A stretch of DNA of 64,000 nt from an uncultured Muribaculaceae bacterium (GTDB lineage: Bacteria; Bacillota_I; Bacilli_A; RF39; UBA660). Below the pieces are notes generated by a model that made no database searches, was not told the DNA's origin, and worked only from the letters and a program-made list of their open reading frames with translations. The translations under genes were made by a program, and so were the position numbers. The DNA lies in the NCBI GenBank assembly GCA_964630365.1, contig CAZVUP010000001.1, positions 3,816-67,815 on the forward strand, read 5' to 3'. Of the stretch, positions 39,769 to 53,162 are shown piece by piece (position 1 is the stretch's first letter; each line of letters opens with the position of its first letter).

Positions 39769-39830
39769 ACAATCAACCACTTTCTACATCATTAACATTA
39801 TAGCAAATTATTAATAGATAAAAAAGATAA

Positions 39831-39861
39831 AAAAGAAAAAACGTATGAATTTTCATACGTT
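39831..39861 (-). terminator. Terminator after the 559-aa cargo gene
   Basis: ACGTATGA/TCATACGT stem followed by a T-run. Same sequence as the hairpin at 41624-41653. Confidence 0.7.
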
Positions 39862-41539
39862 AAGCCAATGGATAAATTTGATAGGGATTAGAACTACTCC
39901 CATTACCTTCTATAATTATTGTATTAGGATCTAAATACAATGTCGGCCAAATGTTAAAAGCAGAAGATACATTACTATAATTAGCAGATGAATTATTAAC
40001 AATATACCAAGCATTGGTTGCACCACTTTGTCCAGGAGTTATTGTCCATGTTGAATTGTTACTTTTTATCCAAGAAGAATTGGCACATGAAGTATATAAG
40101 GCCATCCAATATATTTGATGATTACAATTTGATAAATCTGCACTATAATAATAATCCGTTGGATACATTAATGCCACTTTTCCAGTCCAAGAAGTATCAT
40201 TACCACTATAAATAGATCCATTTCCATGCTCATAATAATACATATCACTAATCGAAACAAGAGCCAAATTTGGACTTGTAAAATATAAAGTTTCATCAGT
40301 AATGAAATTTCTTGTATCATCATTTTGCAAACCAGTAGTAGTAAAATCACAGTTTGATGTTGCAGCATTATCACCACTATAACACTTACCAGAAGCAGCA
40401 TTCCAATACAAACTACCACCAACACTAGCAGTTTCAAAACCAGAATTCAAAAGCTTATTGGCAGCAGATGTTTTCCAATTATTTGTCGAAGTGTCCCAAG
40501 AGTACTGACCAATAGGTGATTCTCTAAGTAATTTCACTTTACCGCCAAATACTCCTATTATCCGCCATTTTTCACAAGTACTATCACTTTGATTATCATA
40601 GTCCTGGCAATTAAAGTATATATAGTTACTAGGATTAGTGCCATAGTATCTTAAGTCTCCACCATTAGCACTATTTGCTCTACCACCAAACCTGTCATTA
40701 ATAATACCTAAAGATGTAGCTCTATTATATGTGTAATTGCCATTTTTAACCGTATTTATAACAGGATTTGCATAAATACCACTATAAAGTCCATCATCTA
40801 TATATCGGCTTAATGGCCAAAATTTTATTGTCACATCTGATTCTACACTATCTATTTTTACATATCTCTCCTTAATATTATATTGTGATCCAGCTACAGT
40901 ATAATTGTCAGTATTCGTAAAAGTTATACTGGCTCCACCAATTGGCACTCCAGATTGTATAAACTCCATATGATTCATTGCATATGTTTTATAATTATTT
41001 CCTCGAGGAGCATTTACATAGGTAATTGTATGATATCCTCGAAAATCAAATTCTAATAATAAATCAAAAGTTGTGTTATTCGCATCATATGCTCCATCAG
41101 CATATTTCATAGTAATATTAAATGTTTTTACTGCGCCTAAACTACATTTACTACTGTTATTATCATCACATAATGGTTCTGTCATTTGATAATTAGACAC
41201 TTCACAAACTAAATTACTAGGACAACCAGTAATTTCAGCAATTCCCATATTTTGATTTCCAATATTTGTAACTTCAACTGTATAAGTAACTGTTGAATCA
41301 GAATTAGGTAAAGAAAAATTTGGCGTAATATTATTAACATTATAATCTTCACTTATAGCTAACCCATCACTAGTACTACCATTAGGAGTAATATTAGTTA
41401 TACGTATATCTTTAATAATTCTTATTTGAGCACCTAAATCTCTCATCATCAAATTTCTATTCATTGCTGAAAAACCAACACTTATAGAAACTACAATAAG
41501 AAACACATAAATATAAACATACTTTATAAAATGCTTCAT
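39860..41539 (-). CDS. Secreted cargo protein 2 (shared leader/TasA-like N-module plus adhesin-like C-terminal half)
   Basis: Leader ...VGFSAMNRNLMMRDLG. N-module STVTYTVEVTNIGN. C-half CEKWRIIGVFGGKVKLL...W.TSAANKLLN...WTITPG...WPTLYL (the pattern I recall as DUF6273-like). Paralog of 41652-43334. Confidence 0.6.
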   Translation of the reverse strand: MKHFIKYVYIYVFLIVVSISVGFSAMNRNLMMRDLGAQIRIIKDIRITNITPNGSTSDGLAISEDYNVNNITPNFSLPNSDSTVTYTVEVTNIGNQNMGIAEITGCPSNLVCEVSNYQMTEPLCDDNNSSKCSLGAVKTFNITMKYADGAYDANNTTFDLLLEFDFRGYHTITYVNAPRGNNYKTYAMNHMEFIQSGVPIGGASITFTNTDNYTVAGSQYNIKERYVKIDSVESDVTIKFWPLSRYIDDGLYSGIYANPVINTVKNGNYTYNRATSLGIINDRFGGRANSANGGDLRYYGTNPSNYIYFNCQDYDNQSDSTCEKWRIIGVFGGKVKLLRESPIGQYSWDTSTNNWKTSAANKLLNSGFETASVGGSLYWNAASGKCYSGDNAATSNCDFTTTGLQNDDTRNFITDETLYFTSPNLALVSISDMYYYEHGNGSIYSGNDTSWTGKVALMYPTDYYYSADLSNCNHQIYWMALYTSCANSSWIKSNNSTWTITPGQSGATNAWYIVNNSSANYSNVSSAFNIWPTLYLDPNTIIIEGNGSSSNPYQIYPLA

Positions 41540-41623
41540 GTTATCCTCCGCTTACAAATATTTTGTGTACAATTTTGTATTCAAATAAATTGTAGCAAAA
41601 ATATCAATAACATACAATATAAA

Positions 41624-41653
41624 AAGAAAAAAACGTATGAATTTTCATACGTT
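41624..41653 (-). terminator. Terminator after the 560-aa cargo gene
   Basis: Identical ACGTATGA/TCATACGT hairpin and T-run. Confidence 0.7.
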
Positions 41654-43334
41654 ATGCTAGAGGGTATATTTTATAAGGTTTAGCATTTGTACCTTCACCA
41701 TCTATAAATATTGTATTAGCATATAAATACATTGTAGGAAGTACTGAATATCCTTCATAAACATCATTATAATTAGCTTTACTAGAAGATTCAACAATCC
41801 ACATATTACCTGTACCACTATACCCAGGGGTAGTAACCCACATTTTATTACTTTGTTTCATCCACGATGTATTAGCACATCCTGTTCCTAACCAATAAAT
41901 ATTAGCCGTACAATTACTTAAATTAGCACTATAATAATAGTCAGTTGCATAAGGGAGCATAACTTTTCCAGTCCATGATCTTTCAGCACCATTTCTTAAA
42001 CTTCCATTATTATGTTCTTGATAATACATATCACTTATAGATAAAAGAGCATTTTGAGGACCGGTAAAGTAAACGGTTTCATCTGATATAAAATCTTTTG
42101 TATCCCCATCTCTTAAACCATTACTTGTAAAACTACAATCAACTTGTTTAACACTTTGAAAAAGCCCAGCCTCAGTTGTATAACATTTACCACTACTACG
42201 ATTCCAATATAAACTGTTATTAACACTTTCACCACTATACCCTGAATTTAAAAGCTTTCTCATTGCTGATGTTGACCAAACATTACTACTTGGATCATAA
42301 GAAAAAGTCCCAATACTTGTTGTATTAATAATCTTAACTTTACCATTAAAAACACCTATTATTCGCCACTTTTCACAAGTACTATCTGATTGATTAGAAT
42401 AATCACTACAATTATAGTAAATATAATTATTAGCACTTGTTCCATAATATCTGACATTTCCACCATCAGGATCACTTGCTCTACCACCTTCTCTATCATT
42501 AATAAGGCCTAAAGAGGTAACTCGATTATAAGTATAAGAAGAAGAGCCGATAGTACCTCCATTAGAAACCGTACTTTTAGCACCATCAGCATATAATTTA
42601 TTTATATATTCACCAAGTGGCCTAAATCTTATTGTTATATCAGAATTTACAGATGCTGCATTAATTGTTAATGTTTTGTTACTCAAAGAATAATTAGTAC
42701 CATTAACTAGTGTTCCTCCATCATTAGTAATAGACATTCCACCAGCTGGATCATATGCTTGAATAAAATTAATATTATCCATAGCATATGTCTTATAATT
42801 ATTTCCACGAGGAGCATTTACATAAGTAACTGTATGATATCCTCGAAAATCAAATTCTAATAATAAATCAAAATTTGTGTTATTAGCATCATATGCCCCA
42901 GATGCATATTTAACAGTAACATCAAAAGATTTTACTGCCCCTAATTTACATTTTCCACTAGTATCACAAATAGGCTCTGTCATAGTATATCCAGAAACCT
43001 CACATACTAAATTACTAGGACATCCTGTAACATTAGCTATTCCCATTTCTACATTTCCAAAATTAGTAACTTCAATTGTATAACTAACAGTTGAATCTTG
43101 ATTAGGTAAACTTAAACTTGGCGTTACATTACTAACATTATAATCTTCATTCATAGCTAACCCATTACTTGTACTACCGCTAGGAGTAATACCAGTAACT
43201 CTTATATCTTTCTCAATTCTTATTTGAGCACCAATATCACGCATCATTAAATTTTTATTCATTGCCGAAAAACCAATAGTAAGTGTCAGAACTAAAAACA
43301 AAATAACAAAAGGAACAAATTTAAATCTTTTCAT
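41652..43334 (-). CDS. Secreted cargo protein 1 (paralog of 39860-41539)
   Basis: Leader ...IGFSAMNKNLMMRDIG. Same domain order. Blocks such as FDLLLEFDFRGYHT.TYVNAPRGNNYKTYAM are identical between the copies. Confidence 0.6.
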   Translation of the reverse strand: MKRFKFVPFVILFLVLTLTIGFSAMNKNLMMRDIGAQIRIEKDIRVTGITPSGSTSNGLAMNEDYNVSNVTPSLSLPNQDSTVSYTIEVTNFGNVEMGIANVTGCPSNLVCEVSGYTMTEPICDTSGKCKLGAVKSFDVTVKYASGAYDANNTNFDLLLEFDFRGYHTVTYVNAPRGNNYKTYAMDNINFIQAYDPAGGMSITNDGGTLVNGTNYSLSNKTLTINAASVNSDITIRFRPLGEYINKLYADGAKSTVSNGGTIGSSSYTYNRVTSLGLINDREGGRASDPDGGNVRYYGTSANNYIYYNCSDYSNQSDSTCEKWRIIGVFNGKVKIINTTSIGTFSYDPSSNVWSTSAMRKLLNSGYSGESVNNSLYWNRSSGKCYTTEAGLFQSVKQVDCSFTSNGLRDGDTKDFISDETVYFTGPQNALLSISDMYYQEHNNGSLRNGAERSWTGKVMLPYATDYYYSANLSNCTANIYWLGTGCANTSWMKQSNKMWVTTPGYSGTGNMWIVESSSKANYNDVYEGYSVLPTMYLYANTIFIDGEGTNAKPYKIYPLA

Positions 43335-43440
43335 ATAATATCTCCCGAAACTTTGATAGTAAATAATTTTTACTAATCAAAAATTATAAATGCCAATTAT
43401 TATAATATCATAATAATTATAGCATTAGTTTCACTAACTG

Positions 43441-43470
43441 AAAAGAAAAAATGCATGAATTCCATGCATT
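43441..43470 (-). terminator. Terminator after the cassette-B accessory gene
   Basis: ATGCATG/CATGCAT stem followed by a T-run on the minus strand. Confidence 0.6.
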
Positions 43471-43504
43471 ATTCTAACGTATAAAATATAAAAAAAAGGA
43501 TAAA

Positions 43505-44968
43505 TTATTTATTACCCTCTTCTAAATCTACTTCTTTAATTGTTAATAAATATAATTCTTCTTCATGACTAATAAAGAAATAACACTTCTGATGCTTATT
43601 AACAACATAATACTTAATTGGTAATTTTAAATTATCACGTACATCTAATAATTCTTGAAATTTACCAACTTTAATAACATTAATATTATCATTAATAACA
43701 GGAGCTGTTTCAGTCTCAACAATCAAACGATCATATTCTTTTAAAACTTTAGAAACATATTTATCATAATTAGATTTTTTTACCAAAACATACCTGATTA
43801 ATCTAACCAGTTTAATTGTAAAATATATCATTCCAACAAAACAAATAATTGCTAAAAGTGCAAAGAAATAATTAGTAACTGCTAAATGTTCAGTAGCTAA
43901 AACCTGCTTATTTTCATTAACCTCTTTATAATCTAACTTAACACTAATAGCTTTTTCAGATAGTGGGATATTTATAAGCATCTCACTATTGCCTTGTATA
44001 GGATATTTTACATCATATTTACTATTATCTTGTCTTACTCTAAAATAAACAAATAAATTACTCTTTGTCTCAAGACCATAACTAGTTCTAAAATTATTAG
44101 CTAAAGCATTATAGTAATTATAATCAATATTTATACTTTTTCTAATATTATGAGAAGAACTATTGCCAACCTTTTCTGTTACTGGTTCTTGTAAAACATA
44201 TTCTTTTTCAAAAAATAGATTTTTTTCACTATTATCAGTAATTTGAAGCTTAGCAACTATATCATATGTTAAATCAAGATCAACCATCTTATCAATATTA
44301 AAATTATAATCAAAATCTACATTAATATGATCAATAAGATTAGCTACATATAACATGTCTTTTCCTAAGTGATCCGTTTCATAGAAATTATTCTCTTTTA
44401 AATAAACTTGATAATCTAAGTTACTTTTTTCATTATAACTAATTGCATCACCATTAATTGTTGAAAAAGATTTTAGAATAAAGAATAAAGTCAAACCAAA
44501 TGATAATAATAACAATACTACCATTTTTCCTACACGATATTCATAACTAACATATTTTCCTTCATTTGGAATATGATTTTCAACTTTAGTTACATTTCCA
44601 CTATCTTGAAGTTTATTACTAGTATCAACACTTTCTTTTTCAGCTATTTGTTCAGATATCTCTGCAAGACTATCATCATTTGAAACAACATCATTAGAAT
44701 CCGGACTAAATGCATTAATAGACTCTTTTATCTGTCTTACTAAATCTTCAGATGTAATAGTTTCATCCATATAATCATCAACAATTTTATCAACATCTAA
44801 ATTGTTTTCGCTGGAATTCATATCAATTTCTTCAAGAGCTTTATTTATCTCTTTAACAAGATCTTCAGAACTCATAGTCTTTTCCAGTTCGTCATCTTTT
44901 CTAAGTGTCTCTTCAAGAGAATTCAACAATTCATTTGTCTGTTTCTTTTTTTTCTTGTGCCTAGACAT
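43505..44968 (-). CDS. Bitopic accessory membrane protein B (DUF5305-like) with an acidic cytoplasmic N-extension
   Basis: NEKSNLDYQVYLKENNFYETDHLGKDMLYVANLIDHINVDFDY aligns with 49406-50434. Order is TM, about 200-aa ectodomain, TM, cytoplasmic tail. ATG 44968 with GGGAGG upstream. Confidence 0.55.
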   Translation of the reverse strand: MSRHKKKKKQTNELLNSLEETLRKDDELEKTMSSEDLVKEINKALEEIDMNSSENNLDVDKIVDDYMDETITSEDLVRQIKESINAFSPDSNDVVSNDDSLAEISEQIAEKESVDTSNKLQDSGNVTKVENHIPNEGKYVSYEYRVGKMVVLLLLSFGLTLFFILKSFSTINGDAISYNEKSNLDYQVYLKENNFYETDHLGKDMLYVANLIDHINVDFDYNFNIDKMVDLDLTYDIVAKLQITDNSEKNLFFEKEYVLQEPVTEKVGNSSSHNIRKSINIDYNYYNALANNFRTSYGLETKSNLFVYFRVRQDNSKYDVKYPIQGNSEMLINIPLSEKAISVKLDYKEVNENKQVLATEHLAVTNYFFALLAIICFVGMIYFTIKLVRLIRYVLVKKSNYDKYVSKVLKEYDRLIVETETAPVINDNINVIKVGKFQELLDVRDNLKLPIKYYVVNKHQKCYFFISHEEELYLLTIKEVDLEEGNK

Positions 44969-44985
44969 CCACAAAAGCCTCCCTT

Positions 44986-46113
44986 CTATAATTCATTTAA
45001 CCAAACAGTTGGCATTCCTATAAAAGGAATTTTATGATCAACTGTTCCTATTATCATATCTTCAGTTATTACCCAGTTATCTTCATCATCATTACTATCA
45101 CCTTTACTATAGAAATAATATTTACCATTATCCTCTATAATATTAACTAAACGATGAACAATAATAACTCCCTCATATCTATAAGCAATTACTTGACCAG
45201 GTTTTAATTTCCCTATATGCTTATCGATCTTTTCAATAATAACTACATCACCTCGAGAAATATTAGGTTCCATACTACCACTTGCTATCGCAATTGCATA
45301 ATAATGGAAATAACCCGAAGTAAAATATACTAATACTATTGTCAACAAAACAGGCACAATATATGCACCTAAAAGCTTTTTATTATAATTTCTAGTTAAG
45401 AATTCATCATAATCTTTTGATAAAAATTTATGAACTCTAAATAAGAAACCAATAGGTAACAATAATTGAATAATAGATGTCAAATATTCATCTGGATTAG
45501 GTATTATTGGAAATACATAACGATATAGTCCAATTACTAAAGCAAAGAAAATTATAGGCTTATAACCAATTTTTAATGTTAAATAACAATAAACAATATT
45601 GCTTGCTATGACTGGTAATAAAGTCAATGCTATAAATATAAAGACTTTATAATTTGAAGAAAAATCAGATGCAGTAATTGCTACTGTAATATCTAAAAAT
45701 ATAAATAGCAACCAAGTCATTACATATAAAAGCCTATTACCTTCAGCTTTAGACATAATCATATAACGAAGTATTTCTTTTAAAACAATAGTAAAAGTTA
45801 TTGGTAATATAAATGTTTTTAATCCATATAAATTATAATAGCCATCAACTTTTGCAAAGCTTATAAAGATTCCCAAAAGATAAAACAAAATAAAGAATAT
45901 TATCAAATAAATAATAGTATCTAAAATAACATCTTTCGCATATCTATGTTTATCTTTTTCAAAACCAAATAAAAATTTAAAAGCTATAAGAACTACTATA
46001 AGAAATAATAACATTTTATATCCTGATAATATATTCCATACAAAACTATTTAGAATCAAGAATAAAAAAATTAGTACTTCAAAAGTCAATAAACGACTAT
46101 ACCCCTTTTTCAT
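44986..46113 (-). CDS. Polytopic membrane domain fused to a SipW-type (ER-type S26) signal peptidase, copy B
   Basis: About 250 aa with about 7 TMs, then IASGSMEP (Ser), IVHRLV (His), SKGDSNDDEDN, IPFIGMPTVWLNE. Confidence 0.7.
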   Translation of the reverse strand: MKKGYSRLLTFEVLIFLFLILNSFVWNILSGYKMLLFLIVVLIAFKFLFGFEKDKHRYAKDVILDTIIYLIIFFILFYLLGIFISFAKVDGYYNLYGLKTFILPITFTIVLKEILRYMIMSKAEGNRLLYVMTWLLFIFLDITVAITASDFSSNYKVFIFIALTLLPVIASNIVYCYLTLKIGYKPIIFFALVIGLYRYVFPIIPNPDEYLTSIIQLLLPIGFLFRVHKFLSKDYDEFLTRNYNKKLLGAYIVPVLLTIVLVYFTSGYFHYYAIAIASGSMEPNISRGDVVIIEKIDKHIGKLKPGQVIAYRYEGVIIVHRLVNIIEDNGKYYFYSKGDSNDDEDNWVITEDMIIGTVDHKIPFIGMPTVWLNEL

Positions 46114-46153
46114 GCTATCCTCCTAAATAATCTTGTTAAAATACATTATAGTA

Positions 46154-46180
46154 GGCACAACCGACATAGTCGATTGCGCC
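46154..46180 (-). promoter_or_regulatory. GC-rich intercistronic stem-loop between the TasA-like B and peptidase B genes
   Basis: 11-bp stem. It is perfect (with two G-U pairs) only in the minus-strand RNA and has two mismatches on the plus strand. The downstream sequence is only weakly U-rich. Confidence 0.4.
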
Positions 46181-46201
46181 ATCTATAAAAAATTCTAAGT
46201 A

Positions 46202-46855
46202 TTAATCTACAGAACCATATAGTAAAGAAACATCACCAAAAGCTACAGTGAAATCACCATCAGCTCTATCTCCACCTTCAGCATAAGTAATAGTTACTAC
46301 AACATCTTCACTAGCACCAACTGCTAATGCATGACTAGATATTGAACCATTTGATGAAGTATATGCAGATCCATCACCAACTTTAACACTGATAGAAATA
46401 TCATCACAAGCAGCGGTAACTAAAGCAGCAGTTGTTCCATTACCTGGAGTACAAACTTTAGCAGCAGCAGGACTAGAACCATTAACATTATTAAATGTTA
46501 CTCCATTTAAATAAGCTTGTAATTCACCAGTATTCTTAGCCTTAAAAGTATAAGTAGCAGTTTGTCCTGGTGCAGTAAAATTAGCTTTTAAACCAGTGAT
46601 ATCATGGTCACTATTGTTAATAGTAGCAGTATCAGCAGTAAAACCACTTGCTGGAGATAATGTTGGAGTTACAGAAGTACCATTTTCAGTACTATTAGTA
46701 AATACAACATTGAAAGTATTTTGATCAGGGCTAACAGCAGCACTAGACTTAATATTCAAAGTTTGAGAAAATGCTGCAAAACCTAATGATAAACCTCCAA
46801 CAGCTAACAATAAAGCAACAATTGCCATAACTTGAGCTCTTCTATTTTTTTCCAT
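46202..46855 (-). CDS. TasA/camelysin-like secreted protein B (candidate major subunit)
   Basis: Leader ...LSLGFAAFSQTLNIKSS (compare TasA GGTWAAFNDIKS). Ala/Thr/Ser/Gly-rich beta module with PGQTATYTFKAKNTGEL. AGGAGGTG RBS. Confidence 0.6.
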   Translation of the reverse strand: MEKNRRAQVMAIVALLLAVGGLSLGFAAFSQTLNIKSSAAVSPDQNTFNVVFTNSTENGTSVTPTLSPASGFTADTATINNSDHDITGLKANFTAPGQTATYTFKAKNTGELQAYLNGVTFNNVNGSSPAAAKVCTPGNGTTAALVTAACDDISISVKVGDGSAYTSSNGSISSHALAVGASEDVVVTITYAEGGDRADGDFTVAFGDVSLLYGSVD

Positions 46856-46980
46856 AGATTACACCTCCTTTTCCTTATTTCAAGCATATGATGACATTTC
46901 TTTTATTCTTTTTAGAGAGATAACAATCCCCATATCATGTACTTTCAATACATACCTATTGTCATATGCTATCTATGAAA

Positions 46981-47009
46981 ATTCTAACATCAAAAGCAGT
47001 AAAAATCAA
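46981..47009 (-). promoter_or_regulatory. Candidate sigma-A promoter of cassette B
   Basis: TTGATT, 17 nt, (TGt)TAGAAT on the minus strand. Confidence 0.4.
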
Positions 47010-47034
47010 GTGTATACAAATAATTTTTATATGC

Positions 47035-47066
47035 AAAAAAACTTTACAAATTTTTTGTAAAGTTTT
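47035..47066 (-). terminator. Terminator ending cassette A
   Basis: AACTTTACAAA/TTTGTAAAGTT palindrome immediately after the stop codon, with T-rich flanks. Confidence 0.6.
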
Positions 47067-47067
47067 C

Positions 47068-49416
47068 TTATTCAGATTTTATAAAGTGCATTCCCGTCCA
47101 CACTTGAACTCTATCACCAGGATTATAATAAGTATTTTCAGAAGTACTATACCATCTTCCAGTAATTAATTTAGATAATGTATAATAATCCCCTTCTTTA
47201 ACCAAATAATTACTTTTAATCAACATATTGTCCTGATCAGTAGTAACCATCCAATATCTTTCATTATTTTTCATTATTGGCGGTAACAACATATTATCAG
47301 CTATAATACTATTTTTAATATAATCTTTAAATAACGCTAAATTCGTTCGATTGTCATTAAGAAGAATTGCTAACTCGCCTGCTCTAAATCCTTTATACAT
47401 ATAATATGGTAATACATCTTCTAAGTATTTATAATCAATAGTTTTAACTACTCTATCATTACTCCATGTAATATCATCATTAAACTTATATAAATTCGTA
47501 ATATCCGTATATCTATCTGTCGTTATAAAATCATCAGATACTATATTATAATATCTAGTTGACGCTACAAAATAATATTTTTTATTCTCATTAACCACCT
47601 CAATATTAGTAACACTAACAGTAGTTAACTTATCACCATTTAATTTCTTAACATTAGTACCAATATGAAAATGTTCTCTATCCTTAAAATTAACAAACTT
47701 ATTCTCATCGGCACTAAAGAATGAATGATCATTAAAAATACTAATAGTTGAATTATCACTAAAAGTAATTTTTATATATGAAGGAGTTGTATAAGCTTTT
47801 TCAATCCATAATGGATATTCTGGAACAAGTCTACCTAATTCATAGCTCCATACCATTAATAAATCATCATATTTAATATCTTCTATATTCTTATACTTAC
47901 CATTAGCTAGTAAAACTTTTGTACCTTCAATTAAGCAACTACCACCTTCAGCAGTTATAACAACATCACCAACAACATTTGGAATCGATACTCGACCATT
48001 ATTATATGTATAACTACCAGTACCAAGAGTTTGTCCGCCCATTGTAACAGTAATAGACTCAGGTAAAGTATTATTACCACTAGCTGTCATTGTACCAGTA
48101 TAAGTTTGATTACGATTTACTGTCGAAGTATTAGGACAATTCAAATTAGTACAACTAAAACTAACATTAAAAACCCATTTATAAGCATCCGATGTGCTAC
48201 GTGAAGCGTGCCCACGACCAGTCGTTGCTGAATTAACATAATCGCTACCACTATTACCACTTTCATCTGTACCACTAACAACAAAATAATATGTTCCCTC
48301 ACTAAGACCAGTAACAACTAAACTCTCACTATCATCACTAGTATTCATAGTTTTAACAACACTTCCACTATTATTAAAAACAGTCACCGTATAGAAAGAA
48401 ATATTTGTATCATCCTCACCACTCCAAGTAACAAGAACAGATCCAACATCATCTTGAATAACAGCATTAACATTACTAATGAAAGGTGGTGTTGTATCAA
48501 CATAAACAACTGTCTTATCAACCAATAAAGAAATTCTACCAGCATTTATTGCACTATCACCAGTAGGAGTAACATACACAGTAACACGCTCTTCATCAAC
48601 ATTATATTCATTACCTGCTAACTCTTTTACATAAAAAGTATAATTAGAATCTCCTCCAGCTGTAATAGTCTGTGTTGGATATGGATTTCCATTAGCATCT
48701 ACTATTTGAAAGTGATCACTACTAATTGAAATATCAAAAGTACTATCATAACTATAAGTACTTAAAACCCTAACAGAAAACTCTGCTGTATCAGGATTAC
48801 CCCTTAAATCACCTGTCGTTGGAGCATTCATAGATGCCAAAATATGAGCCGTTGTATCTTCTGCTACTTGTGGCGCAAAATCTCCATTAATAACAAAAGT
48901 ATCAGTATCTTGCTCACTAGATGGATTAGTAAAAGTAAACGATACCGTAAACGTCTTTGACTCCCCTGAAGATATAACATCACCAGCGGCAATACCAGTT
49001 ATTGTATATCCTACATAAGAAGAATCAATAAGTTCTCCATTACTCTGTCTATTAACAGTCATTGGATAACTAAGACTCGTATACACAAAATCATAAAAAC
49101 TATCATTTTGAATAGTAACATCAAACACTGCAACATATGTAGCACTCTGATCAGCAACAGTCGTAAATTTAAGTCCAAAATCAATAGAATTACCATTATT
49201 AATTACAGGATTAGAAATAGCATTAGTGTGCGTTCCTTGAGTAACACTCTTAATATAAATATCTCCCCCAGCTTTAAAGATAGATCCCCCACTTAAATTC
49301 AAAATTTGCCCATAAAGAGCAAATCCCACAGTCATAAAAAGTAATACAAAAACAGCAAAAAAAGAGATTATAACGCTGCTTTTTAATCTTTTCTTCTCAA
49401 CATACCTATTCATCAT
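47068..49416 (-). CDS. Large secreted cargo protein: shared leader/TasA-like module, Fn3-like and Ig-like domains, Hint domain, unknown C-terminal domain
   Basis: Leader ...VGFALYGQILNLSGG. Fn3-like PPFISNV...VTWSG...GTYYFVVSGTDESGN. Hint block A GSCLIEGTKVLLANGKYKNIEDIKYDDLLMV (Cys codon 47935-47937). Block B-like ISIFNDHSFF. ATG 49416/49413 after GAGGA. Confidence 0.65.
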   Translation of the reverse strand: MMNRYVEKKRLKSSVIISFFAVFVLLFMTVGFALYGQILNLSGGSIFKAGGDIYIKSVTQGTHTNAISNPVINNGNSIDFGLKFTTVADQSATYVAVFDVTIQNDSFYDFVYTSLSYPMTVNRQSNGELIDSSYVGYTITGIAAGDVISSGESKTFTVSFTFTNPSSEQDTDTFVINGDFAPQVAEDTTAHILASMNAPTTGDLRGNPDTAEFSVRVLSTYSYDSTFDISISSDHFQIVDANGNPYPTQTITAGGDSNYTFYVKELAGNEYNVDEERVTVYVTPTGDSAINAGRISLLVDKTVVYVDTTPPFISNVNAVIQDDVGSVLVTWSGEDDTNISFYTVTVFNNSGSVVKTMNTSDDSESLVVTGLSEGTYYFVVSGTDESGNSGSDYVNSATTGRGHASRSTSDAYKWVFNVSFSCTNLNCPNTSTVNRNQTYTGTMTASGNNTLPESITVTMGGQTLGTGSYTYNNGRVSIPNVVGDVVITAEGGSCLIEGTKVLLANGKYKNIEDIKYDDLLMVWSYELGRLVPEYPLWIEKAYTTPSYIKITFSDNSTISIFNDHSFFSADENKFVNFKDREHFHIGTNVKKLNGDKLTTVSVTNIEVVNENKKYYFVASTRYYNIVSDDFITTDRYTDITNLYKFNDDITWSNDRVVKTIDYKYLEDVLPYYMYKGFRAGELAILLNDNRTNLALFKDYIKNSIIADNMLLPPIMKNNERYWMVTTDQDNMLIKSNYLVKEGDYYTLSKLITGRWYSTSENTYYNPGDRVQVWTGMHFIKSE

Positions 49417-50434
49417 AATCCTCTTTTTCAATTACATATTCCCAAGCCATATGTTCAAATATAATAACAAATCTTGTTCTATTCTTTTCTTGAACATAAT
49501 TAATTGGCGTTCTAACGTCATTATAAACTACTAACAAATCATCAAAAGAACTAACTTCTACTAAATTAAATTTACTTAGTTTTAATTCTTTTACTTTTAC
49601 CATAATACTACCATAATCATTAGTAATCTTAATAACATTTCCATTATAACTATCTAATTTCTTATTCTTAGCTAACCATACAAAATGCTTAAACACAACA
49701 TAGAATAATCCAAAGATATCTATTAAGAATAATATCTTAAAGATAATATGCTTTAAATCATTAAGTCTTACTTTACGAGTTATTTCTTTTTGTTTATTAT
49801 TTTGATCAGTATTAATAACACCCTCTACTGCTACTTTAGATAAAGGTATTTTTACACTTATTTCAGAATTAACAGGAATAGTATCTTCAGCACTAACTTG
49901 TGGTTTACCATCAACAACAAGTGCAAGTTTCAAGAATCCATCACTACTCAAATTATAAGTATCAACAAATGATAATAATAATTCATTATATTTCTGATAA
50001 TCAATATTAATTGACTCAGATATTTCACAATCTTCTTCACCAAATAAATATTTAGTTCTGATATCAGTTAAATTAAAACTCTTCTCCCAATAAGTACCAA
50101 CTTGATTATTTGTCTTTTCAGCACTAACTGTTGCTACTATATGATATTTTAATTCACCATCAACAGGAGTATTAAATAATACTTTATATTTATAATCAAC
50201 AACTAAATGATCTATCAAACTAGTAATATAGGTTTTATCTTTACCAAGAAAAGGTTGATCAAAGAAATTATTTTCTTTTAGATATACTTTATAATCAATA
50301 CTATTATCTTCATTGTAAGAGTATTTTATATCTTGGCAATCATTGAAACCAATGGAATAAAATACTAAACCAAGAATGACTAGTACTGCAACATATACCC
50401 AAAAATAATCTGTTGACCTTTTCTTTACTAGCAC
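49406..50434 (-). CDS. Bitopic accessory membrane protein A (DUF5305-like)
   Basis: NEDNSIDYKVYLKENNFFDQPFLGKDKTYITSLIDHLVVDYKY. TMs at about residues 10-28 and 229-250. GTG start with AAGGAGTG upstream. Overlaps the next gene by 11 nt. Confidence 0.55.
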   Translation of the reverse strand: MLVKKRSTDYFWVYVAVLVILGLVFYSIGFNDCQDIKYSYNEDNSIDYKVYLKENNFFDQPFLGKDKTYITSLIDHLVVDYKYKVLFNTPVDGELKYHIVATVSAEKTNNQVGTYWEKSFNLTDIRTKYLFGEEDCEISESINIDYQKYNELLLSFVDTYNLSSDGFLKLALVVDGKPQVSAEDTIPVNSEISVKIPLSKVAVEGVINTDQNNKQKEITRKVRLNDLKHIIFKILFLIDIFGLFYVVFKHFVWLAKNKKLDSYNGNVIKITNDYGSIMVKVKELKLSKFNLVEVSSFDDLLVVYNDVRTPINYVQEKNRTRFVIIFEHMAWEYVIEKEDYDE

Positions 50435-50439
50435 CTATA

Positions 50440-51594
50440 TCACTCCTTTCTTAAAAATTCATTAAACCAAACCGTTGGCCACCCTATATATTTACAAACA
50501 TAGATAACTTTACCAATAATATCTTCTTCTTCAATTAAATAACCATCTTCATTGTTATTGGCATCTCCTTTAGTATAGAAGAAAACTTGTTCCTCATATT
50601 CAACCTTTTTAACAACCCTATGAGCAATAATTTTACCACTCTTTTGATAGATTAATATTTCCCCAACTTCAGTATCTTTAGGATTTTTCTTATCAACCAA
50701 TACTGCATCTCCCTTATAGTAAACAGGTATCATTGAGTTTGATGCTATCGCAATCAATTGATATCTAAGTATTCCAGAAACTAGTATTGTTAAAATAATT
50801 AAAGCTACAACTAAAGGTCTAGTCATAAACCCAACACTAAATTTATTCTCTTTTCCTCTTCTTCTATCTAATCTATTTATTTTAACGATATATTTTCTAT
50901 CTGCTAAATAAATAACAAAAGGTATTAATATATGCATAGTCCCATATAAATACTCATTTAAATTAGCGAAGAATGGAAATATATATATATAACATTTAGC
51001 CAATACCTTGAATACTAAACTAGGTAATAGACCAAAATTATATGTCATATAACTACATAATAATTCCTGTGCAATTATAGGAAAAATAGTTATAGAAATA
51101 AAAATGAACCATTTAAGTTTATTATCAAGAAATCCTATATTCATCTCTAATAATATATTCAATATAATTAACAAAATAGTTAATATAACAATTTCACTTT
51201 TATTTATATAAGTACTTTTAATAAGAGTATATCTAAAAACCTCTTCAACCACTAAAAATATAAGTACAGGAATAAATCCATTTAATACTTTATCAACATC
51301 AAGTGAAAATGCTGTTTTAGAAAATCCAATTAAAATTCCAAGCAAAAAACAAATAAAGAAAAATCCTACAAAAACAGAAATTTCTATTTTTATAGCTGTC
51401 TCTCTATCAAAAGAATTATCCTTCTTATAACCTAAGAAGTAAATTGCCGGAATAAGTAAAATTACTAAAAAGCATACAATTACAAAGCTTCTACCAAGAG
51501 GATTATTATAGTTAGACATTAAAAGGAAATATAATACTTCAAATATTAATAAAGCTATCTCAAATATATAAATCCTTTTAAGTCTAACCTTCAT
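50440..51594 (-). CDS. Polytopic membrane domain fused to a SipW-type signal peptidase, copy A
   Basis: About 260 aa with about 7 TMs, then IASNSMIP, IAHRVV, TKGDANNNEDG, YIGWPTVWFNE. Confidence 0.7.
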   Translation of the reverse strand: MKVRLKRIYIFEIALLIFEVLYFLLMSNYNNPLGRSFVIVCFLVILLIPAIYFLGYKKDNSFDRETAIKIEISVFVGFFFICFLLGILIGFSKTAFSLDVDKVLNGFIPVLIFLVVEEVFRYTLIKSTYINKSEIVILTILLIILNILLEMNIGFLDNKLKWFIFISITIFPIIAQELLCSYMTYNFGLLPSLVFKVLAKCYIYIFPFFANLNEYLYGTMHILIPFVIYLADRKYIVKINRLDRRRGKENKFSVGFMTRPLVVALIILTILVSGILRYQLIAIASNSMIPVYYKGDAVLVDKKNPKDTEVGEILIYQKSGKIIAHRVVKKVEYEEQVFFYTKGDANNNEDGYLIEEEDIIGKVIYVCKYIGWPTVWFNEFLRKE

Positions 51595-51618
51595 AATCAC
51601 ACCATCTTTATATTAAAA

Positions 51619-52197
51619 TTAAGCTACATCTTCATAAAGAAAAGATCCATTAATTGTAATTGTTTTATCTTCTGTTGGTAAATCTGCTTGTGGAATATCT
51701 TCTTTATTTTTATAAGTAATAGTTAATGTTACATCTTTTGTAGCACCATTTTCATTAATTACATTAGATAAACCTGTTGCATTAGTAGTATAATCTGCTC
51801 CATCATAAGTAAGTTTACACTCAGCAAATTTTTGTTGATCAGCTGTTAAACCACTAAAATTAATAGTAGTAAGTTTTGCTTTAATAGTACCATCATTAAC
51901 AACTTTCCACTTTGCAACATAAGTATCACCTGGTTTATTCAAAGTTACATTGAAAGTAAAATCAGTATTTGTTAAACTACTTGATTGAGCAACATCAGCT
52001 GTACCACTTTCTTGTAAAGTTCCTGATTTATAATGAACATTCCAAGCATTTTTGAAAACAGCTTTACTTGAAGTACCACTAGCTCCACCACCGATATTTA
52101 ATGTTGTAGAATATAATGCGAAACCTACAGCCATGAATAATAGTACTGCTACCAATAAAATAATAGTCTTTCTTTCACTCTTTTTACTTTTTCTCAT
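51619..52197 (-). CDS. TasA/camelysin-like secreted protein A (candidate major subunit)
   Basis: Start MRKSKKSERK (ATG 52197, AGGAGG 7 nt upstream). Leader ...VGFALYSTTLNIGGG. FTFNVTLNKPGDTYVAKWKVVNDGT resembles TasA NLSNLKPGDKLTKDFQFENNGS. Confidence 0.6.
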   Translation of the reverse strand: MRKSKKSERKTIILLVAVLLFMAVGFALYSTTLNIGGGASGTSSKAVFKNAWNVHYKSGTLQESGTADVAQSSSLTNTDFTFNVTLNKPGDTYVAKWKVVNDGTIKAKLTTINFSGLTADQQKFAECKLTYDGADYTTNATGLSNVINENGATKDVTLTITYKNKEDIPQADLPTEDKTITINGSFLYEDVA

Positions 52198-52245
52198 CTT
52201 CATACCTCCTCTATTATATAAATTTAACATTTTTCGACATATTTC

Positions 52246-52274
52246 ACAATATTTTTATTAAAAATTTGTTGCAA
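52246..52274 (-). promoter_or_regulatory. Candidate promoter of cassette A
   Basis: TTGCAA, 17 nt, TATTGT on the minus strand. The -35 box overlaps the preceding terminator T-run. Confidence 0.3.
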
Positions 52275-52324
52275 AAAAAAATATTTGTGATATAAGGCAT
52301 TCCCTATTAAAAAACCACAAATAT
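52272..52324 (-). terminator. Terminator ending the seven-paralog array
   Basis: 9-bp outer stem ATATTTGTG/CACAAATAT plus an inner ATAGGG/CCTTAT helix, followed by T9 on the minus strand. Confidence 0.5.
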
Positions 52325-53149
52325 TTATTTTTTGTTGTATATATATACTTTATCAACTTCAACCATTTCATCTTGACCGGTGTATTCTTCAAATTTTATG
52401 TCTTTCTTATGCGGAGGTGCATAAACAGCTACTTGCCCATGCTCAGTTAAATGAGGTTGTACCTTATCATCTAAAAAACTAGTTAATGTAGTAAATTGCT
52501 CATTACTAAAATAGTCTGTTATATTCGACATAAAAACAGCATCATATTTTTCATCAGAACTAAGTTTAGAAATAAAGTCATGAAATGTAGCATGATGTAA
52601 TCTAACATCTACCCTTTCCAAGTTATCCCTTGTAACATAATAGTTTTCATCAAAAGCAAAACATCTAAGTCTACTATCAATAAAGAATTGTAAGAAGATA
52701 AATCTAGATTTATTATTTTTTAAATTTCCGCTTTGATATAATGTATCCCAAAATATTAGTGAATCTAAGTCCAACTCTTCTCTAATTTTTAAATATATAT
52801 TCAAATCAAATATCTCAGAAGGATCTCTAAAACCAAAAAAGTATGCAAATTCATCTTGACTTAAAGTTTTTAAAGCCGCTAATTTTAACTTTATCAAATA
52901 TATCTGAAATCTATTTTTATCAAAAGCATCTACTTCTTTTGCTCCACTATAAACAGCTTGTAAGATATGATCTCCACTGCCAGCAACAGTTAATACTTTC
53001 GCACCATCTAACTTAAACTTATCATAATAAATTGATAAAGCTTCATTTGTTCGAATATAAATTTTTCCATAATTTTTTGGATATTTCTGAAAATAAACAT
53101 CATTTAACATATTTATAGCAACTTCAATATCTCGTGGTAATTCCTTCAT
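52325..53149 (-). CDS. DUF3419/BtaA-like SAM-fold protein, array member 7
   Basis: IYIRTNEALSIYY, KVLTVAGSGDHILQAVYSGAKEVDAFDKNRF, KLKLAALK, FWDTLY, YDAVFMSNITDY, VAVYAPP. Confidence 0.6.
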   Translation of the reverse strand: MKELPRDIEVAINMLNDVYFQKYPKNYGKIYIRTNEALSIYYDKFKLDGAKVLTVAGSGDHILQAVYSGAKEVDAFDKNRFQIYLIKLKLAALKTLSQDEFAYFFGFRDPSEIFDLNIYLKIREELDLDSLIFWDTLYQSGNLKNNKSRFIFLQFFIDSRLRCFAFDENYYVTRDNLERVDVRLHHATFHDFISKLSSDEKYDAVFMSNITDYFSNEQFTTLTSFLDDKVQPHLTEHGQVAVYAPPHKKDIKFEEYTGQDEMVEVDKVYIYNKK

Positions 53150-53162
53150 AAGGCACCCCCAT

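What the first reader, a model, noticed from the sequence alone, without database searches (positions are those of the whole stretch)
39831..52274. Two tandem cassettes (TasA-like subunit, membrane-fused SipW-type peptidase, bitopic accessory protein, large cargo proteins): candidate undescribed surface-fibre/display system
Seen in the sequence: two same-strand cassettes share one gene order. Cassette A runs 52197 to 47068. It encodes a 192-aa secreted protein, a 384-aa peptidase fusion, a 342-aa bitopic protein and an approximately 782-aa cargo protein. These genes are at most 18 nt apart or overlap, and hairpin terminators bracket the cassette (52272-52324 and 47035-47066). Cassette B runs 46855 to 39860. 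It encodes a 217-aa secreted protein, a 375-aa peptidase fusion and a 487-aa bitopic protein. Two paralogous 560/559-aa cargo genes follow, each with its own terminator. Established knowledge: dedicated ER-type signal peptidases (SipW) process TasA-family fibre subunits in B. subtilis tapA-sipW-tasA and in the C. perfringens sipW-bsaA locus. Inference: this locus is related but architecturally different. The peptidase carries a large polytopic domain. A DUF5305-like protein sits where TapA would be. Adhesin-like and Hint-containing cargo proteins carry the same leader and N-module. I do not know a described system with this composition.
Basis: partly seen in the sequence, partly recalled or inferred. 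Interest (0 to 1): 0.85.

Follow-up and report, generated by a model that had tools for sequence, protein, structure and literature searches.

The report
Two TasA-like surface-fibre operons
Two neighbouring operons in an uncultured gut bacterium each encode a small secreted subunit, a dedicated membrane-embedded signal peptidase, a helper protein and large adhesin-like proteins with the same leader. They most likely build surface fibres of the recently described TasA/Tafi/AbpX kind, so this is an uncharacterised variant, not a wholly new system.

Summary
Two same-strand cassettes (S subunit, fused signal peptidase P, DUF5305 protein D, large "cargo" C) lie at 39860-52197 and are separated by hairpin terminators. 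The order S-P-D is conserved: S sits directly upstream of P in 76 of 80 cases and D directly downstream in 78 of 80, across 84 related loci, all from uncultured gut Bacilli/Clostridia MAGs.

P is an ER/archaeal-type signal peptidase. It passes TIGR02228, matches SEC11 and keeps invariant Ser/His/Asp, and it follows an unannotated 8-helix membrane domain. D is DUF5305.

S and all three cargo proteins share one leader, G-[FYW]-[AS]|x-[FY]-x3-L-x-I, and an S-like N-terminal beta-sandwich module. No other ORF in the window has this leader. The S model's best, though weak, structural matches are donor-strand fibre subunits: Caf1, the archaeal thread, TasA and AbpA. S is not a sequence-level TasA member (no PF12389 or TIGR04088 match; hhalign 7.7%).

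The composition is not undescribed. Archaeal Tafi loci (2023-2025) and AbpX loci in archaea and Bacillota (preprint, 2026) combine TasA-like pilins, tip proteins, a polytopic SPase I and a DUF5305 accessory protein.

Verdict: a new variant of a known kind. New details are a large unannotated subunit family and a Hint-domain cargo protein. Fibre formation is inferred, not shown.

The parts
52270..52326 (-). Hairpin plus U-run terminator of the upstream DUF3419 gene. It marks the 5' boundary of cassette A.
   Evidence: -14.7 kcal/mol, z -3.5.
51619..52197 (-). A1: 192-aa small secreted subunit (S family, A-type). Leader ...MAVGFA|LYSTTLNI.
   Evidence: S-family profile E 8e-36.
50440..51594 (-). 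A2: 384-aa fused peptidase (P, A-type). Polytopic N-domain followed by an ER/archaeal-type signal peptidase I domain.
   Evidence: TIGR02228 7e-24, 84.5 bits vs cut-off 51.85. Invariant Ser/His/Asp in alignments A1 and A3. A-type subgroup.
49406..50434 (-). A3: 342-aa bitopic DUF5305 protein (D). TM 11-29, external domain, TM 230-248, cytoplasmic C-domain.
   Evidence: Pfam DUF5305 9.6e-8, 32.2 bits vs cut-off 29. TM segments. 21 of 24 family members match DUF5305.
47068..49431 (-). A4: about 782-787-aa cargo protein (Ca). Same leader (MTVGFA|LYGQILNL), S-like N-module, Ig/FN3-like middle, Hint domain, conserved C-terminal domain of about 130 aa.
   Evidence: Family length 777-795 aa in eight further loci, with longer or truncated variants in L014, L064 and L063.
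47467..47937 (-). Hint (intein/Hedgehog-like) autoprocessing domain of A4, about aa 499-655. Invariant Cys499 in G|CL[IV]EGTK. It ends ...ITTD and lacks the intein His-Asn plus nucleophile.
   Evidence: alignment; profile vs PDB 6tmm/6y75, E 8e-5 over the whole Hint chain; sub-threshold Pfam Hint-type matches in 7 of 11 members.
47035..47067 (-). Hairpin plus U-run terminator after A4.
   Evidence: -11.8 kcal/mol, z -5.0.
46202..46855 (-). B1: 217-aa small secreted subunit (S family, B-type). Leader ...LSLGFA|AFSQTLNI. Predicted beta-sandwich.
   Evidence: (pLDDT 87.6).
44986..46113 (-). B2: 375-aa fused peptidase (P, B-type). Eight-helix N-domain (aa 1-235), anchor TM 249-265, external catalytic domain 266-375 with Ser280, His320, Asp339 and Asp345.
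43505..44968 (-). B3: 487-aa bitopic D-family protein with an extra acidic N-terminal extension of about 150 aa.
   Evidence: 30% identity to A3, E 9e-42. TM segments 152-170 and 369-387. No direct Pfam match.
43446..43475 (-). Hairpin plus U-run terminator after B3.
   Evidence: z -3.9.
41652..43334 (-). B4: 560-aa cargo protein (Cb). Leader LTIGFS|AMNKNLMM, S-like N-module, unannotated C-terminal domain with 10 Cys.
   Evidence: S profile E 1e-40 on aa 5-182.
41626..41653 (-). Hairpin plus U-run terminator after B4. Its 22-nt stem-loop is identical to the one after B5.
   Evidence: z -5.5.
39860..41539 (-). B5: 559-aa cargo protein (Cb), 59% identical to B4.
   Evidence: S profile E 7e-37 on aa 6-215.
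39834..39861 (-). Hairpin plus U-run terminator after B5.
   Evidence: z -5.4.

Best explanation
Each cassette most likely encodes a surface-fibre system of the TasA-superfamily type, where subunits link by donor-strand complementation. It carries its own leader peptidase.

Step 1 (read from sequence). The small S proteins and the large C proteins are made with a Sec-type signal-anchor. It ends in the conserved motif G-[FYW]-[AS] followed by x-[FY]-x-x-x-L-x-I.

Step 2 (catalytic equipment and topology read from sequence and model; the cleavage itself is inferred). The cassette's peptidase P has an ER/archaeal-type Ser-His-Asp catalytic domain. This domain sits on the outer face of the membrane, tethered to an 8-helix membrane domain. 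P probably works with the bitopic DUF5305 protein D as an accessory subunit. It would cut after the small residue at -1 (GFA|A or GFS|A).

Step 3 (inferred). Cleavage frees an amphipathic N-terminal strand with an aromatic residue at +2, as in TasA and AbpX. This strand inserts into the beta-sandwich of the next subunit, so S polymerises into a fibre.

Step 4 (inferred). C proteins carry the same leader and an S-like N-module, so they are built into the fibre as minor or tip subunits. They display variable binding domains. Elsewhere in the family these are BspA-type LRR, DUF6273/Lcl_C, ConA-like lectin and Listeria-Bacteroides repeats.

Step 5 (inferred). In the A-type cassette the cargo ends in a Hint module. 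It should self-cleave at Gly498|Cys499 through a thioester.

The two cassettes are two old subtypes living side by side (31% identical peptidases), not a recent duplication.
For: Peptidase:
- TIGR02228 above its cut-off for A2 and B2. SEC11A/C at E 1e-13 by sequence profile and 1.1e-4 by fold.
- Ser280-Met, His320-Arg, Asp339 and Asp345 are invariant in 54 sequences, including both window copies.
- The model has 9 helices. Charged loops follow the positive-inside rule and place the catalytic domain outside.

Dedicated relationship:
- S lies immediately upstream of P in 76 of 80 cases and D immediately downstream in 78 of 80.
- There are 1-6 tandem S copies per locus.
- The leader motif occurs in 91 of 94 S ORFs and 45 of 52 C ORFs of those loci.
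- In the whole 64-kb window it occurs only in the five S and C proteins.

Subunit:
- Confident model, pLDDT 87.6. It has a beta-sandwich, and the segment after the predicted cut (aa 26-49) shows no regular secondary structure.
- That segment is among the most conserved in the family: G25, A27, L33, I35 and A39 are invariant.
- Six of the seven best PDB fold matches are donor-strand fibre subunits: Caf1 (twice), the Sulfolobus 0406 thread, the TasA fibre, AbpA and FimG.
- Mature S is acidic, median pI 4.3.

Module sharing:
- The S profile matches the N-termini of A4, B4 and B5 at E 8e-19 to 1e-40.
- All 51 ORFs of 300 aa or more with an S module have it at the N-terminus.
- Many of the 4504 library relatives are 300-650 aa with the S module first. 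Some carry adhesin-type domains.

Precedent:
- In Tafi, deleting the signal peptidase TafD abolishes pilin processing and fibres. DUF5305 (TafG) co-occurs with it (PMC11821415).
- AbpX loci in archaea and Bacillota contain minor and tip subunits, a ten-TM SPase I and a DUF5305 accessory protein.
Against: - No polymerisation evidence of any kind exists for this family.
- Structural similarity to known donor-strand subunits is weak: no Foldseek hit at E<=1e-3, and TM at most 0.41.
- The S profile shows no significant similarity to TasA (hhalign 7.7%) or to any PDB sequence.
- The leader is not recognised by the SipW-cognate model TIGR04088.
- Position +4 of the predicted mature N-terminus is N/Q/T/S, not the acidic residue conserved in TasA and AbpX.
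- The cleavage site is predicted only from the -3/-1 rule.
- No multimer prediction could be run.
- No anchoring component such as LPXTG, SLH or a sortase is present in the cassettes.
Confidence: 0.6

Rival explanations
1. This is a dedicated leader-peptidase sorting system with no fibre. P and D recognise the G-F-A|x-F...L-x-I leader and mature a private set of surface proteins. These stay monomeric, bound to the wall or membrane, or form a layer. The N-terminal S-like module would then be a common stalk or wall-binding domain, not a polymerisation module.
For: - The shared leader and strict S-P-D synteny show a dedicated substrate-peptidase relationship, not polymerisation.
- Fold matches to fibre subunits are weak.
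- There is no sequence link to TasA.
- NCBIfam lists several classes of SipW-dependent exported proteins: TIGR04088, TIGR04089 and TIGR04090.
Against: - The top fold matches are enriched for donor-strand subunits.
- The post-cleavage N-terminal strand is the most conserved part of S and has no regular structure in the monomer model. A simple cleavage site would not need this.
- There are up to six tandem S paralogues per locus, as with major and minor pilins.
- The characterised systems of this composition, Tafi and the AbpX protein itself, form fibres.
Confidence: 0.22
2. Cassette A is mainly a toxin or effector delivery module. The Hint domain of A4 acts like a pre-toxin Hint of polymorphic toxin systems and releases the C-terminal domain of about 130 aa as an effector. 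The S-like part only serves export.
For: - A Hint domain with an invariant N-terminal Cys is followed by a separate C-terminal domain.
- From my own knowledge, polymorphic toxins use Hint domains in front of toxin tips. This was not tested here.
Against: - The C-terminal domain is conserved in sequence and length across 9-10 distant MAGs. It is not polymorphic.
- No immunity-like small gene follows A4. A terminator and cassette B follow directly.
- The end of the Hint domain (ITTD) lacks the Asn needed for C-terminal cleavage, so the C-terminal domain would stay attached to Hint.
Confidence: 0.06
3. P is simply the cell's general signal peptidase, and the neighbouring genes are unrelated secreted proteins that happen to lie next to it.
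For: These lineages have small genomes; some contigs of 1.1-1.4 Mb carry the gene. Whether another SPase I exists in the genome could not be checked.
Against: - Two divergent P copies each sit inside their own cassette.
- S-P-D order holds in more than 95% of 80 testable cases.
- The leader motif is restricted to cassette proteins.
Confidence: 0.04

Closest known systems
AbpX-type loci of archaea and Bacillota/Chloroflexota (TasA superfamily; bioRxiv 10.64898/2026.01.04.697558)
   Same: - A small acidic secreted subunit of about 217 aa precursor length, with an aromatic residue at +2 of the mature N-terminus.
- Extra subunit-like 'minor' and 'tip' proteins.
- A dedicated TIGR02228-type SPase I with many TM helices.
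- A DUF5305 accessory protein with an external beta-sandwich, two TM helices and a cytoplasmic domain.

   Different: - The S family here has N/Q/T/S at +4, not the acidic calcium-binding residue.
- Nine predicted helices versus the ten reported.
- No LPXTG or SLH anchor, sortase, histidine kinase or c-di-GMP genes in the cassettes.
- A Hint-bearing subunit is not mentioned in that paper (0 occurrences of Hint or intein).
- Homology of S to AbpX, and of the P N-domain to the AbpX-locus SPase, could not be tested because no sequences were available.
Haloarchaeal Tat-fimbriae (Tafi: TafA/C/E pilins, TafD peptidase, TafG DUF5305, TafF adhesin-like; PMC11821415, PMC12337348)
   Same: - Donor-strand pilins next to a dedicated signal peptidase I and a DUF5305 protein, plus adhesin-like proteins.
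- Peptidase/DUF5305 pairs can be duplicated within one genome.
- The peptidase is required for pilin processing.
   Different: - Tafi is archaeal and mostly Tat-exported.
- TafD has four TM helices, with the peptidase domain at the N-terminus followed by a second external domain.
- Here the host is bacterial, the leaders are Sec-type without twin arginines, and the peptidase domain is C-terminal after eight helices.
Bacillus subtilis tapA-sipW-tasA and the C. perfringens sipW-bsaA operon
   Same: - An ER-type signal peptidase is encoded beside its fibre-subunit substrates.
- The leader ends in small-aromatic-A-A-F-like residues. TasA has GTWA|AFND (my reading of the sequence; the cut position is from my own knowledge).
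- The fibre forms by donor-strand exchange (PMC9674648, listed).
   Different: - From my own knowledge, SipW is about 190 aa with two TM helices. It has no polytopic domain.
- The accessory protein there is TapA, not DUF5305.
- S does not match PF12389, TIGR04088 or TIGR04090, and hhalign gives 7.7%.
CPBP/CAAX-protease-like 8-TM proteins (S. aureus SpdC, PDB 6u0o_A)
   Same: - The only fold match covering the peptidase N-domain: 266 columns, probability 0.93, TM 0.49. Chain identity comes from PMC10811503.
- The invariant E113-x-x-R116 and F137-x-x-x-D141 on consecutive helices recall the CPBP motifs EExxxR and FxxxH. Those motifs are from my own knowledge.
   Different: - E-value is 0.13.
- No Pfam match to any CPBP/Rce1 model in 54 members.
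- The motif His residues are absent.
- This is a lead only.

Membership tests
ER/archaeal-type signal peptidase I (SipW/SEC11; TIGR02228, S26B) | Sequence match above the curated cut-off | tested here: met
   A2 84.5 bits and B2 76.4 bits vs cut-off 51.85. SEC11A/C E 1e-13. Foldseek SEC11C/A 1.1e-4, TM 0.57.
ER/archaeal-type signal peptidase I (SipW/SEC11; TIGR02228, S26B) | Catalytic Ser and His (not the Ser/Lys of bacterial P-type enzymes), plus conserved Asp residues | tested here: met
   S280 (S-M), H320 (H-R), D339 and D345 are invariant in 54 sequences, including A2 and B2.
ER/archaeal-type signal peptidase I (SipW/SEC11; TIGR02228, S26B) | Equivalog of B. subtilis SipW (NF046067) | tested here: not met
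   50.6 and 61.8 bits vs cut-off 190. Related, but not a SipW equivalog.
DUF5305 (Pfam PF17231; TafG / 'SPase I accessory') | Pfam match above the gathering score | tested here: met
   A3 32.2 bits vs 29. 21 of 24 D-family members match, best 3.9e-18. B3 has no direct match but is 30% identical to A3, E 9e-42.
DUF5305 (Pfam PF17231; TafG / 'SPase I accessory') | Two TM helices flanking an external domain, with a cytoplasmic C-terminal domain | tested here: met
   Hydropathy: A3 TM 11-29 and 230-248; B3 TM 152-170 and 369-387. Described architecture.
TasA/camelysin family (Pfam PF12389 Peptidase_M73) | Sequence or profile similarity of the subunit | tested here: not met
   No PF12389 match at E<=0.1. 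hhalign of the S profile vs a TasA profile gives probability 7.7%. S profile vs PDB sequences gives nothing.
SipW-dependent-type signal peptide (NCBIfam TIGR04088) | Leader matches the model | tested here: not met
   No match for four leaders and two full S proteins at E<=10. The TasA control scores 38 bits vs cut-off 19.
TasA superfamily in the structural sense (donor-strand biomatrix fibres: TasA, AbpA, 0406 thread, Tafi, AbpX) | Beta-sandwich/jelly-roll subunit fold similar to known members | tested here: inconclusive
   The model is confident (pLDDT 87.6). The best matches include 7pnb (prob 0.98, TM 0.40), 7ueg (0.97, 0.41) and 8aur (0.77, 0.26). All have E>=4e-3.
TasA superfamily in the structural sense (donor-strand biomatrix fibres: TasA, AbpA, 0406 thread, Tafi, AbpX) | Conserved amphipathic N-terminal donor strand exposed by signal-peptide cleavage | tested here: inconclusive
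   The motif x-[FY]-x3-L-x-I after a -3/-1 site occurs in 91 of 94 S and 45 of 52 C ORFs. The segment is invariant-rich and has no regular structure in the monomer model. Cleavage and strand insertion were not shown.
TasA superfamily in the structural sense (donor-strand biomatrix fibres: TasA, AbpA, 0406 thread, Tafi, AbpX) | Polymerisation by donor-strand complementation | not testable with these tools
   Only monomer prediction was available. This needs AF-Multimer/AF3, or EM.
AbpX-like subfamily | Acidic subunit (pI about 4) with an aromatic residue at +2 and an acidic residue at +4 of the mature N-terminus | tested here: not met
   pI median 4.27 and aromatic at +2: yes. Position +4 is N/Q/S/T in S (position table).
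AbpX-like subfamily | Locus with a polytopic SPase I plus DUF5305 plus minor and tip subunits | tested here: met
   The helix count is 9, versus the 10 reported.
Hint superfamily (inteins, Hedgehog, bacterial intein-like domains) | Hint fold or sequence with an N-terminal nucleophile | tested here: met
   Profile A5 vs PDB 6tmm/6y75, E 8e-5 across the whole chain. Invariant Cys in CL[IV]EGTK. Pfam and NCBIfam matches are all below their cut-offs.
Hint superfamily (inteins, Hedgehog, bacterial intein-like domains) | True intein: C-terminal His-Asn plus a downstream Cys/Ser/Thr for splicing | tested here: not met
   The Hint domain ends ...NxI[AS][ND]DxITTD in all members. It is not a splicing intein; only N-terminal cleavage or thioester formation is expected.
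Sortase-assembled Gram-positive pili | LPXTG sorting signal on the subunits and a sortase in the locus | tested here: not met
   The C-termini of S and C lack LPXTG and a C-terminal TM. There is no sortase in the cassettes.

The most novel reading that the evidence does not exclude
The A-type cassette builds a donor-strand fibre whose large subunit uses its Hedgehog-like Hint module to convert its own Gly498-Cys499 bond into a thioester. It then transfers the fibre-bound N-terminal fragment onto an outside nucleophile, such as peptidoglycan, a lipid or a host glycan or protein. That would be sortase-independent covalent anchoring or covalent adhesion. Separately, the peptidase's 8-helix domain may be a divergent CPBP-type second active site that handles the leader. 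Either would be a mechanism not yet reported for TasA-type fibres.
Probability: 0.1. Interest if true: 0.8.

Novelty: new variant of a known kind. Interest (0 to 1): 0.5.

Why it matters
- The S family is large: 4504 clusters at 50% identity, 614 of them at E<=1e-30. It has no annotation and appears confined to uncultured gut Bacilli and Clostridia of ruminants, rabbits, mice and humans.
- If these are fibres, they are probably a main adhesion or biofilm organelle of lineages that have no cultured members.
- They would also extend the TasA/Tafi/AbpX principle (a dedicated polytopic signal peptidase, DUF5305 and donor-strand subunits) to the animal gut.
- The modular design (leader plus S-module plus a swappable binding domain) gives a simple rule for finding their adhesins.
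- The Hint-bearing subunit and the fused 8-helix domain are concrete, testable additions to how such fibres are processed.

Tried and rejected
- Sequence searches of S against Pfam, NCBIfam and PDB found nothing useful.
- hhalign of S against a TasA profile built from real TasA homologues was negative.
- Pfam scans of 54 peptidases at E<=10 found no family for the N-domain. The CPBP/SpdC resemblance therefore stays a weak structural lead.
- A D-family profile against PDB found nothing, so no link to eukaryotic SPC subunits by sequence.
- B5 and A4 against PDB gave only marginal FN3-like hits.
- The C-terminal domain of B4/B5 stays unidentified. My guess of DUF6273 was not supported for B5 itself, although DUF6273 occurs in related cargo proteins.
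- Rfam found no riboswitch or other RNA in the window or the cassettes.
- The sigma-70 promoter scan was no better than shuffles: 101 sites vs 104 expected. No promoter is claimed.
- Type IV pilin rejected: the conserved G-F motif follows the hydrophobic segment instead of preceding it.
- Sortase pilus rejected: no LPXTG and no sortase.
- Recent tandem duplication rejected: the two peptidases are 31% identical and belong to two subtypes with different distributions.

Full report
**Observation**

The window is low-GC (about 28%) and almost every gene is on the minus strand.

- A1 starts at the ATG at 52197, 7 nt after AGGAGG, giving 192 aa.
- A2 and B3 start at an ATG two codons inside the mechanical ORF, giving 384 and 487 aa.

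The cassettes are paralogous gene by gene:
- Peptidases: 31% identity, E 1e-62.
- Bitopic proteins: 30%, E 9e-42.
- Small proteins: 24%, E 4e-12.
- The small proteins also resemble the N-terminal ~190 aa of the large proteins. A1 vs A4 is 31% (E 7e-13) and B1 vs B5 is 26% (E 1.5e-6).
- B4 and B5 are 59% identical.

Five hairpin plus U-run terminators are real, with z from -3.5 to -5.5 against shuffles. They divide the region into four units: [A1-A2-A3-A4], [B1-B2-B3], [B4] and [B5]. The promoter scan was no better than chance, so I claim no promoters.

**What the parts are**

The peptidases (P):
- Both pass the curated cut-off of TIGR02228, the archaeal/ER-type signal peptidase I model. They fall short of the B. 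subtilis SipW equivalog model.
- A family profile matches human SEC11A/C at E 1e-13. The predicted structure matches them at E 1.1e-4.
- Ser280-Met, His320-Arg, Asp339 and Asp345 are invariant in 54 sequences, including both window copies. This is the Ser/His(/Asp) equipment of ER-type enzymes.
- The model (pLDDT 80) has eight helices, then a basic cytoplasmic loop, a ninth anchor helix and the beta-rich catalytic domain.
- Loop charges follow the positive-inside rule and put the catalytic domain outside (my reading).
- The eight-helix domain has no Pfam family in any of 54 members, even at E<=10.
- Its only fold match is S. aureus SpdC, a CAAX-protease-like protein: 6u0o_A, E 0.13, probability 0.93, TM 0.49 over 266 columns. 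The chain identity comes from PMC10811503.
- Invariant E113xxR116 and F137xxxD141 on consecutive helices recall the CPBP motifs. I treat this as a lead only.

The bitopic proteins (D):
- They are DUF5305. A3 is above the gathering score and 21 of 24 family members match.
- They have two TM helices around an external domain and a cytoplasmic tail.

**Substrates**

All five S and C proteins carry a basic n-region and a hydrophobic stretch of about 20 residues. Then comes G-[FYW]-[AS]-x-[FY]-x-x-x-L-x-I.
- Across 84 related loci the motif is present in 91 of 94 S ORFs and 45 of 52 C ORFs.
- In all six frames of this 64-kb window it occurs in these five proteins and nowhere else.
- The -3/-1 rule places cleavage at GFA|A or GFS|A. 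This gives a mature N-terminus with an aromatic residue at +2 and hydrophobic residues at +6 and +8.
- That stretch holds a large share of the invariant columns of the S family. It has no regular secondary structure in the otherwise confident model of B1 (pLDDT 87.6).
- An S-family profile built from the other genomes matches the N-termini of A4, B4 and B5 at E 8e-19 to 1e-40.
- In the loci, all 51 ORFs of 300 aa or more with an S module have it at the N-terminus.

**Is S TasA-like?**

By sequence, no:
- There is no PF12389 match.
- There is no match to the SipW-cognate leader model TIGR04088. Real TasA matches it as a control.
- The S profile matches no PDB sequence.
- hhalign against a profile of 30 genuine TasA proteins gives 7.7%. 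It aligns only a 'PGxxxxxxFxxxNxG' hairpin.

By fold, weakly yes:
- No Foldseek hit reaches E 1e-3.
- However, six of the seven best PDB matches are donor-strand fibre subunits: Caf1 (twice), the Sulfolobus 0406 thread, the TasA fibre, Pyrobaculum AbpA and FimG.
- Probabilities reach 0.98 and TM-scores 0.41.

I read this as a beta-sandwich of the donor-strand pilin kind whose family assignment is open.

**Distribution and context**

- The fused peptidase has more than 800 relatives, almost all 374-377 aa. The only names given are 'signal peptidase I [Bacilli bacterium]'.
- A scan of species-representative genomes found 121 matches. Every one of the 80 listed comes from an uncultured gut MAG: goat, sheep, deer, rabbit, mouse or Hadza humans. 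They are labelled Bacilli, Erysipelotrichaceae, Mycoplasma or Tenericutes, with a few Clostridia.
- S lies directly upstream of P in 76 of 80 testable cases and D directly downstream in 78 of 80. There are one to six S copies per locus.
- Precomputed Pfam annotation of independent contigs shows the same triad.
- The peptidases fall into two subtypes. A-type has 8 loci: L006 at 94% identity to A2, and Clostridia MAGs at 36-43%. All of them have the Hint cargo next to D. B-type has 75 loci.
- The two cassettes are therefore co-resident subtypes, not a recent duplication. L006, a goat-jejunum MAG, has the same pair.
- The S family is large: 4504 clusters at 50% identity with E<=1e-3, and 614 at E<=1e-30. 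Many are 300-650 aa with the S module first.
- The C-terminal parts of such proteins carry BspA-type LRR, DUF6273/Lcl_C, ConA-like lectin and Listeria-Bacteroides repeats. These are typical binding modules.
- The C-terminal domain of B4 and B5 remains unidentified.

**The Hint cargo**

- A4 has a Hint domain from Cys499.
- A family profile matches a solved Hint-type chain over its whole length: 6tmm/6y75, E 8e-5. It also matches intein entries weakly.
- Single-sequence Pfam and NCBIfam matches are all below their cut-offs.
- The Cys in G|CL[IV]EGTK and a downstream His are conserved. The domain ends ...ITTD without the intein His-Asn and following nucleophile.
- Splicing is therefore not expected. 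N-terminal cleavage or thioester chemistry is.
- A conserved domain of about 130 aa follows the Hint domain. Family length is 777-795 aa in eight other loci, and three further loci carry longer or truncated variants.

**Comparison with what is known**

The literature held here contains closer systems.
- Haloarchaeal Tat-fimbriae have donor-strand pilins, a dedicated signal peptidase TafD, a DUF5305 protein TafG and an adhesin-like TafF. TafD is needed for pilin processing and fibre formation, and TafG is proposed to assist it. Similar Sec-dependent clusters occur in Thermococcales and Archaeoglobales (PMC11821415, PMC12337348).
- A January 2026 preprint on Pyrodictium AbpX describes abpX loci in archaea and in Bacillota and Chloroflexota. 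These loci have AbpX-like minor subunits, tip proteins, a TIGR02228 SPase I 'possessing ten transmembrane helices' and a DUF5305 'SPase I accessory' protein.
- The composition found here is therefore described, at least bioinformatically.

Differences from those systems:
- The S family is unannotated and lacks the acidic +4 residue of AbpX and TasA.
- The peptidase has nine predicted helices.
- There is no anchor or regulator in the cassettes.
- There is a Hint-bearing subunit. The AbpX preprint mentions neither Hint nor intein, and one full-text search turned up no paper linking a Hint domain to such fibres.

I could not test direct homology to the AbpX or Tafi proteins.

**Mechanism and confidence**

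The best explanation (0.6) is a donor-strand fibre system with its own leader peptidase, accessory subunit and modular adhesin subunits.
- Shown: the enzyme type and its catalytic residues, the topology, the shared leader and module, and the synteny.
- Inferred: the cleavage position, the P-D complex, polymerisation, incorporation of the cargo, and Hint self-cleavage.

The main rival (0.22) is the same dedicated processing system acting on proteins that do not polymerise.

**Verdict**

This is a real, widespread, uncharacterised system. It is a new variant of a kind defined in 2022-2026, not a categorically new one. Interest 0.5.

Noticed in passing
window 52325-58625 (minus strand): A tandem array of seven paralogous 269-293-aa genes lies directly upstream of cassette A, interrupted by a 120-aa ORF at 55660-56022. 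The five scanned against Pfam all match DUF3419 (SAM-methyltransferase-like) at E 1e-11 to 4e-20. The two not scanned, 53978-54802 and 54805-55659, are included only on visible sequence resemblance. Function and any link to the fibre cassettes are unknown.
   Followed up: partly
window 29874-31007 (minus strand): A 377-aa protein with an ordinary signal peptide (...VVFA|EE). It has an S-like beta-sandwich domain (S profile E 3e-8, aa 28-126), then two hydrophobic segments and a Cys-rich C-terminal domain. An S-like domain with no donor-strand leader, followed by a membrane anchor, could be a fibre base or acceptor. This is pure speculation.
   Followed up: partly
window 43505-44968 (B3, N-terminal ~150 aa): B3 has an acidic, low-complexity cytoplasmic extension that A3 lacks. 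D-family lengths range from 337 to 617 aa across loci, so the cytoplasmic side of this accessory protein is variable.
   Followed up: no
window 44986-46113 and 50440-51594 (peptidase N-domains): Residues E113, R116, P167, P186, P202 and P220 are invariant, and F137, D141 and N172 nearly so, inside the eight-helix domain. Together with a conserved C-terminal G-x-P-T-V-W-x-N tail, this suggests the membrane domain has a specific function of its own.
   Followed up: partly
window 41626-41653 and 39834-39861: The terminators after B4 and B5 share an identical 22-nt stem-loop, AACGTATGAAAATTCATACGTT. The B4/B5 duplication therefore included the 3' flank.
   Followed up: no
window 35994-39780 and 58709-59848: Flanking genes are envelope-related:
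- a membrane-anchored GDSL lipase/acylhydrolase (38848-39780);
- VanW with a peptidoglycan-binding domain (37622-38848);
- a Zn-ribbon polytopic protein (35994-37274);
- a PBP5-type D-Ala-D-Ala carboxypeptidase (58709-59848).
A SpoVS-like 86-aa ORF at 37298-37558 was named only from my reading of its sequence and was not scanned. The organism therefore makes peptidoglycan, although some relatives are labelled Mycoplasma or Tenericutes.
   Followed up: partly
L017 (rabbit MAG), about 3000-8000; L052; L031: Some loci carry 3-6 tandem S paralogues upstream of one P-D pair, reminiscent of major and minor pilin arrays or antigenic diversification.
   Followed up: no
L001 16511-18665: One related MAG also encodes a classical sortase with a TED/SpaA-domain protein about 5 kb from its S-P-D triad. 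Sortase pili and this system can therefore coexist.
   Followed up: no
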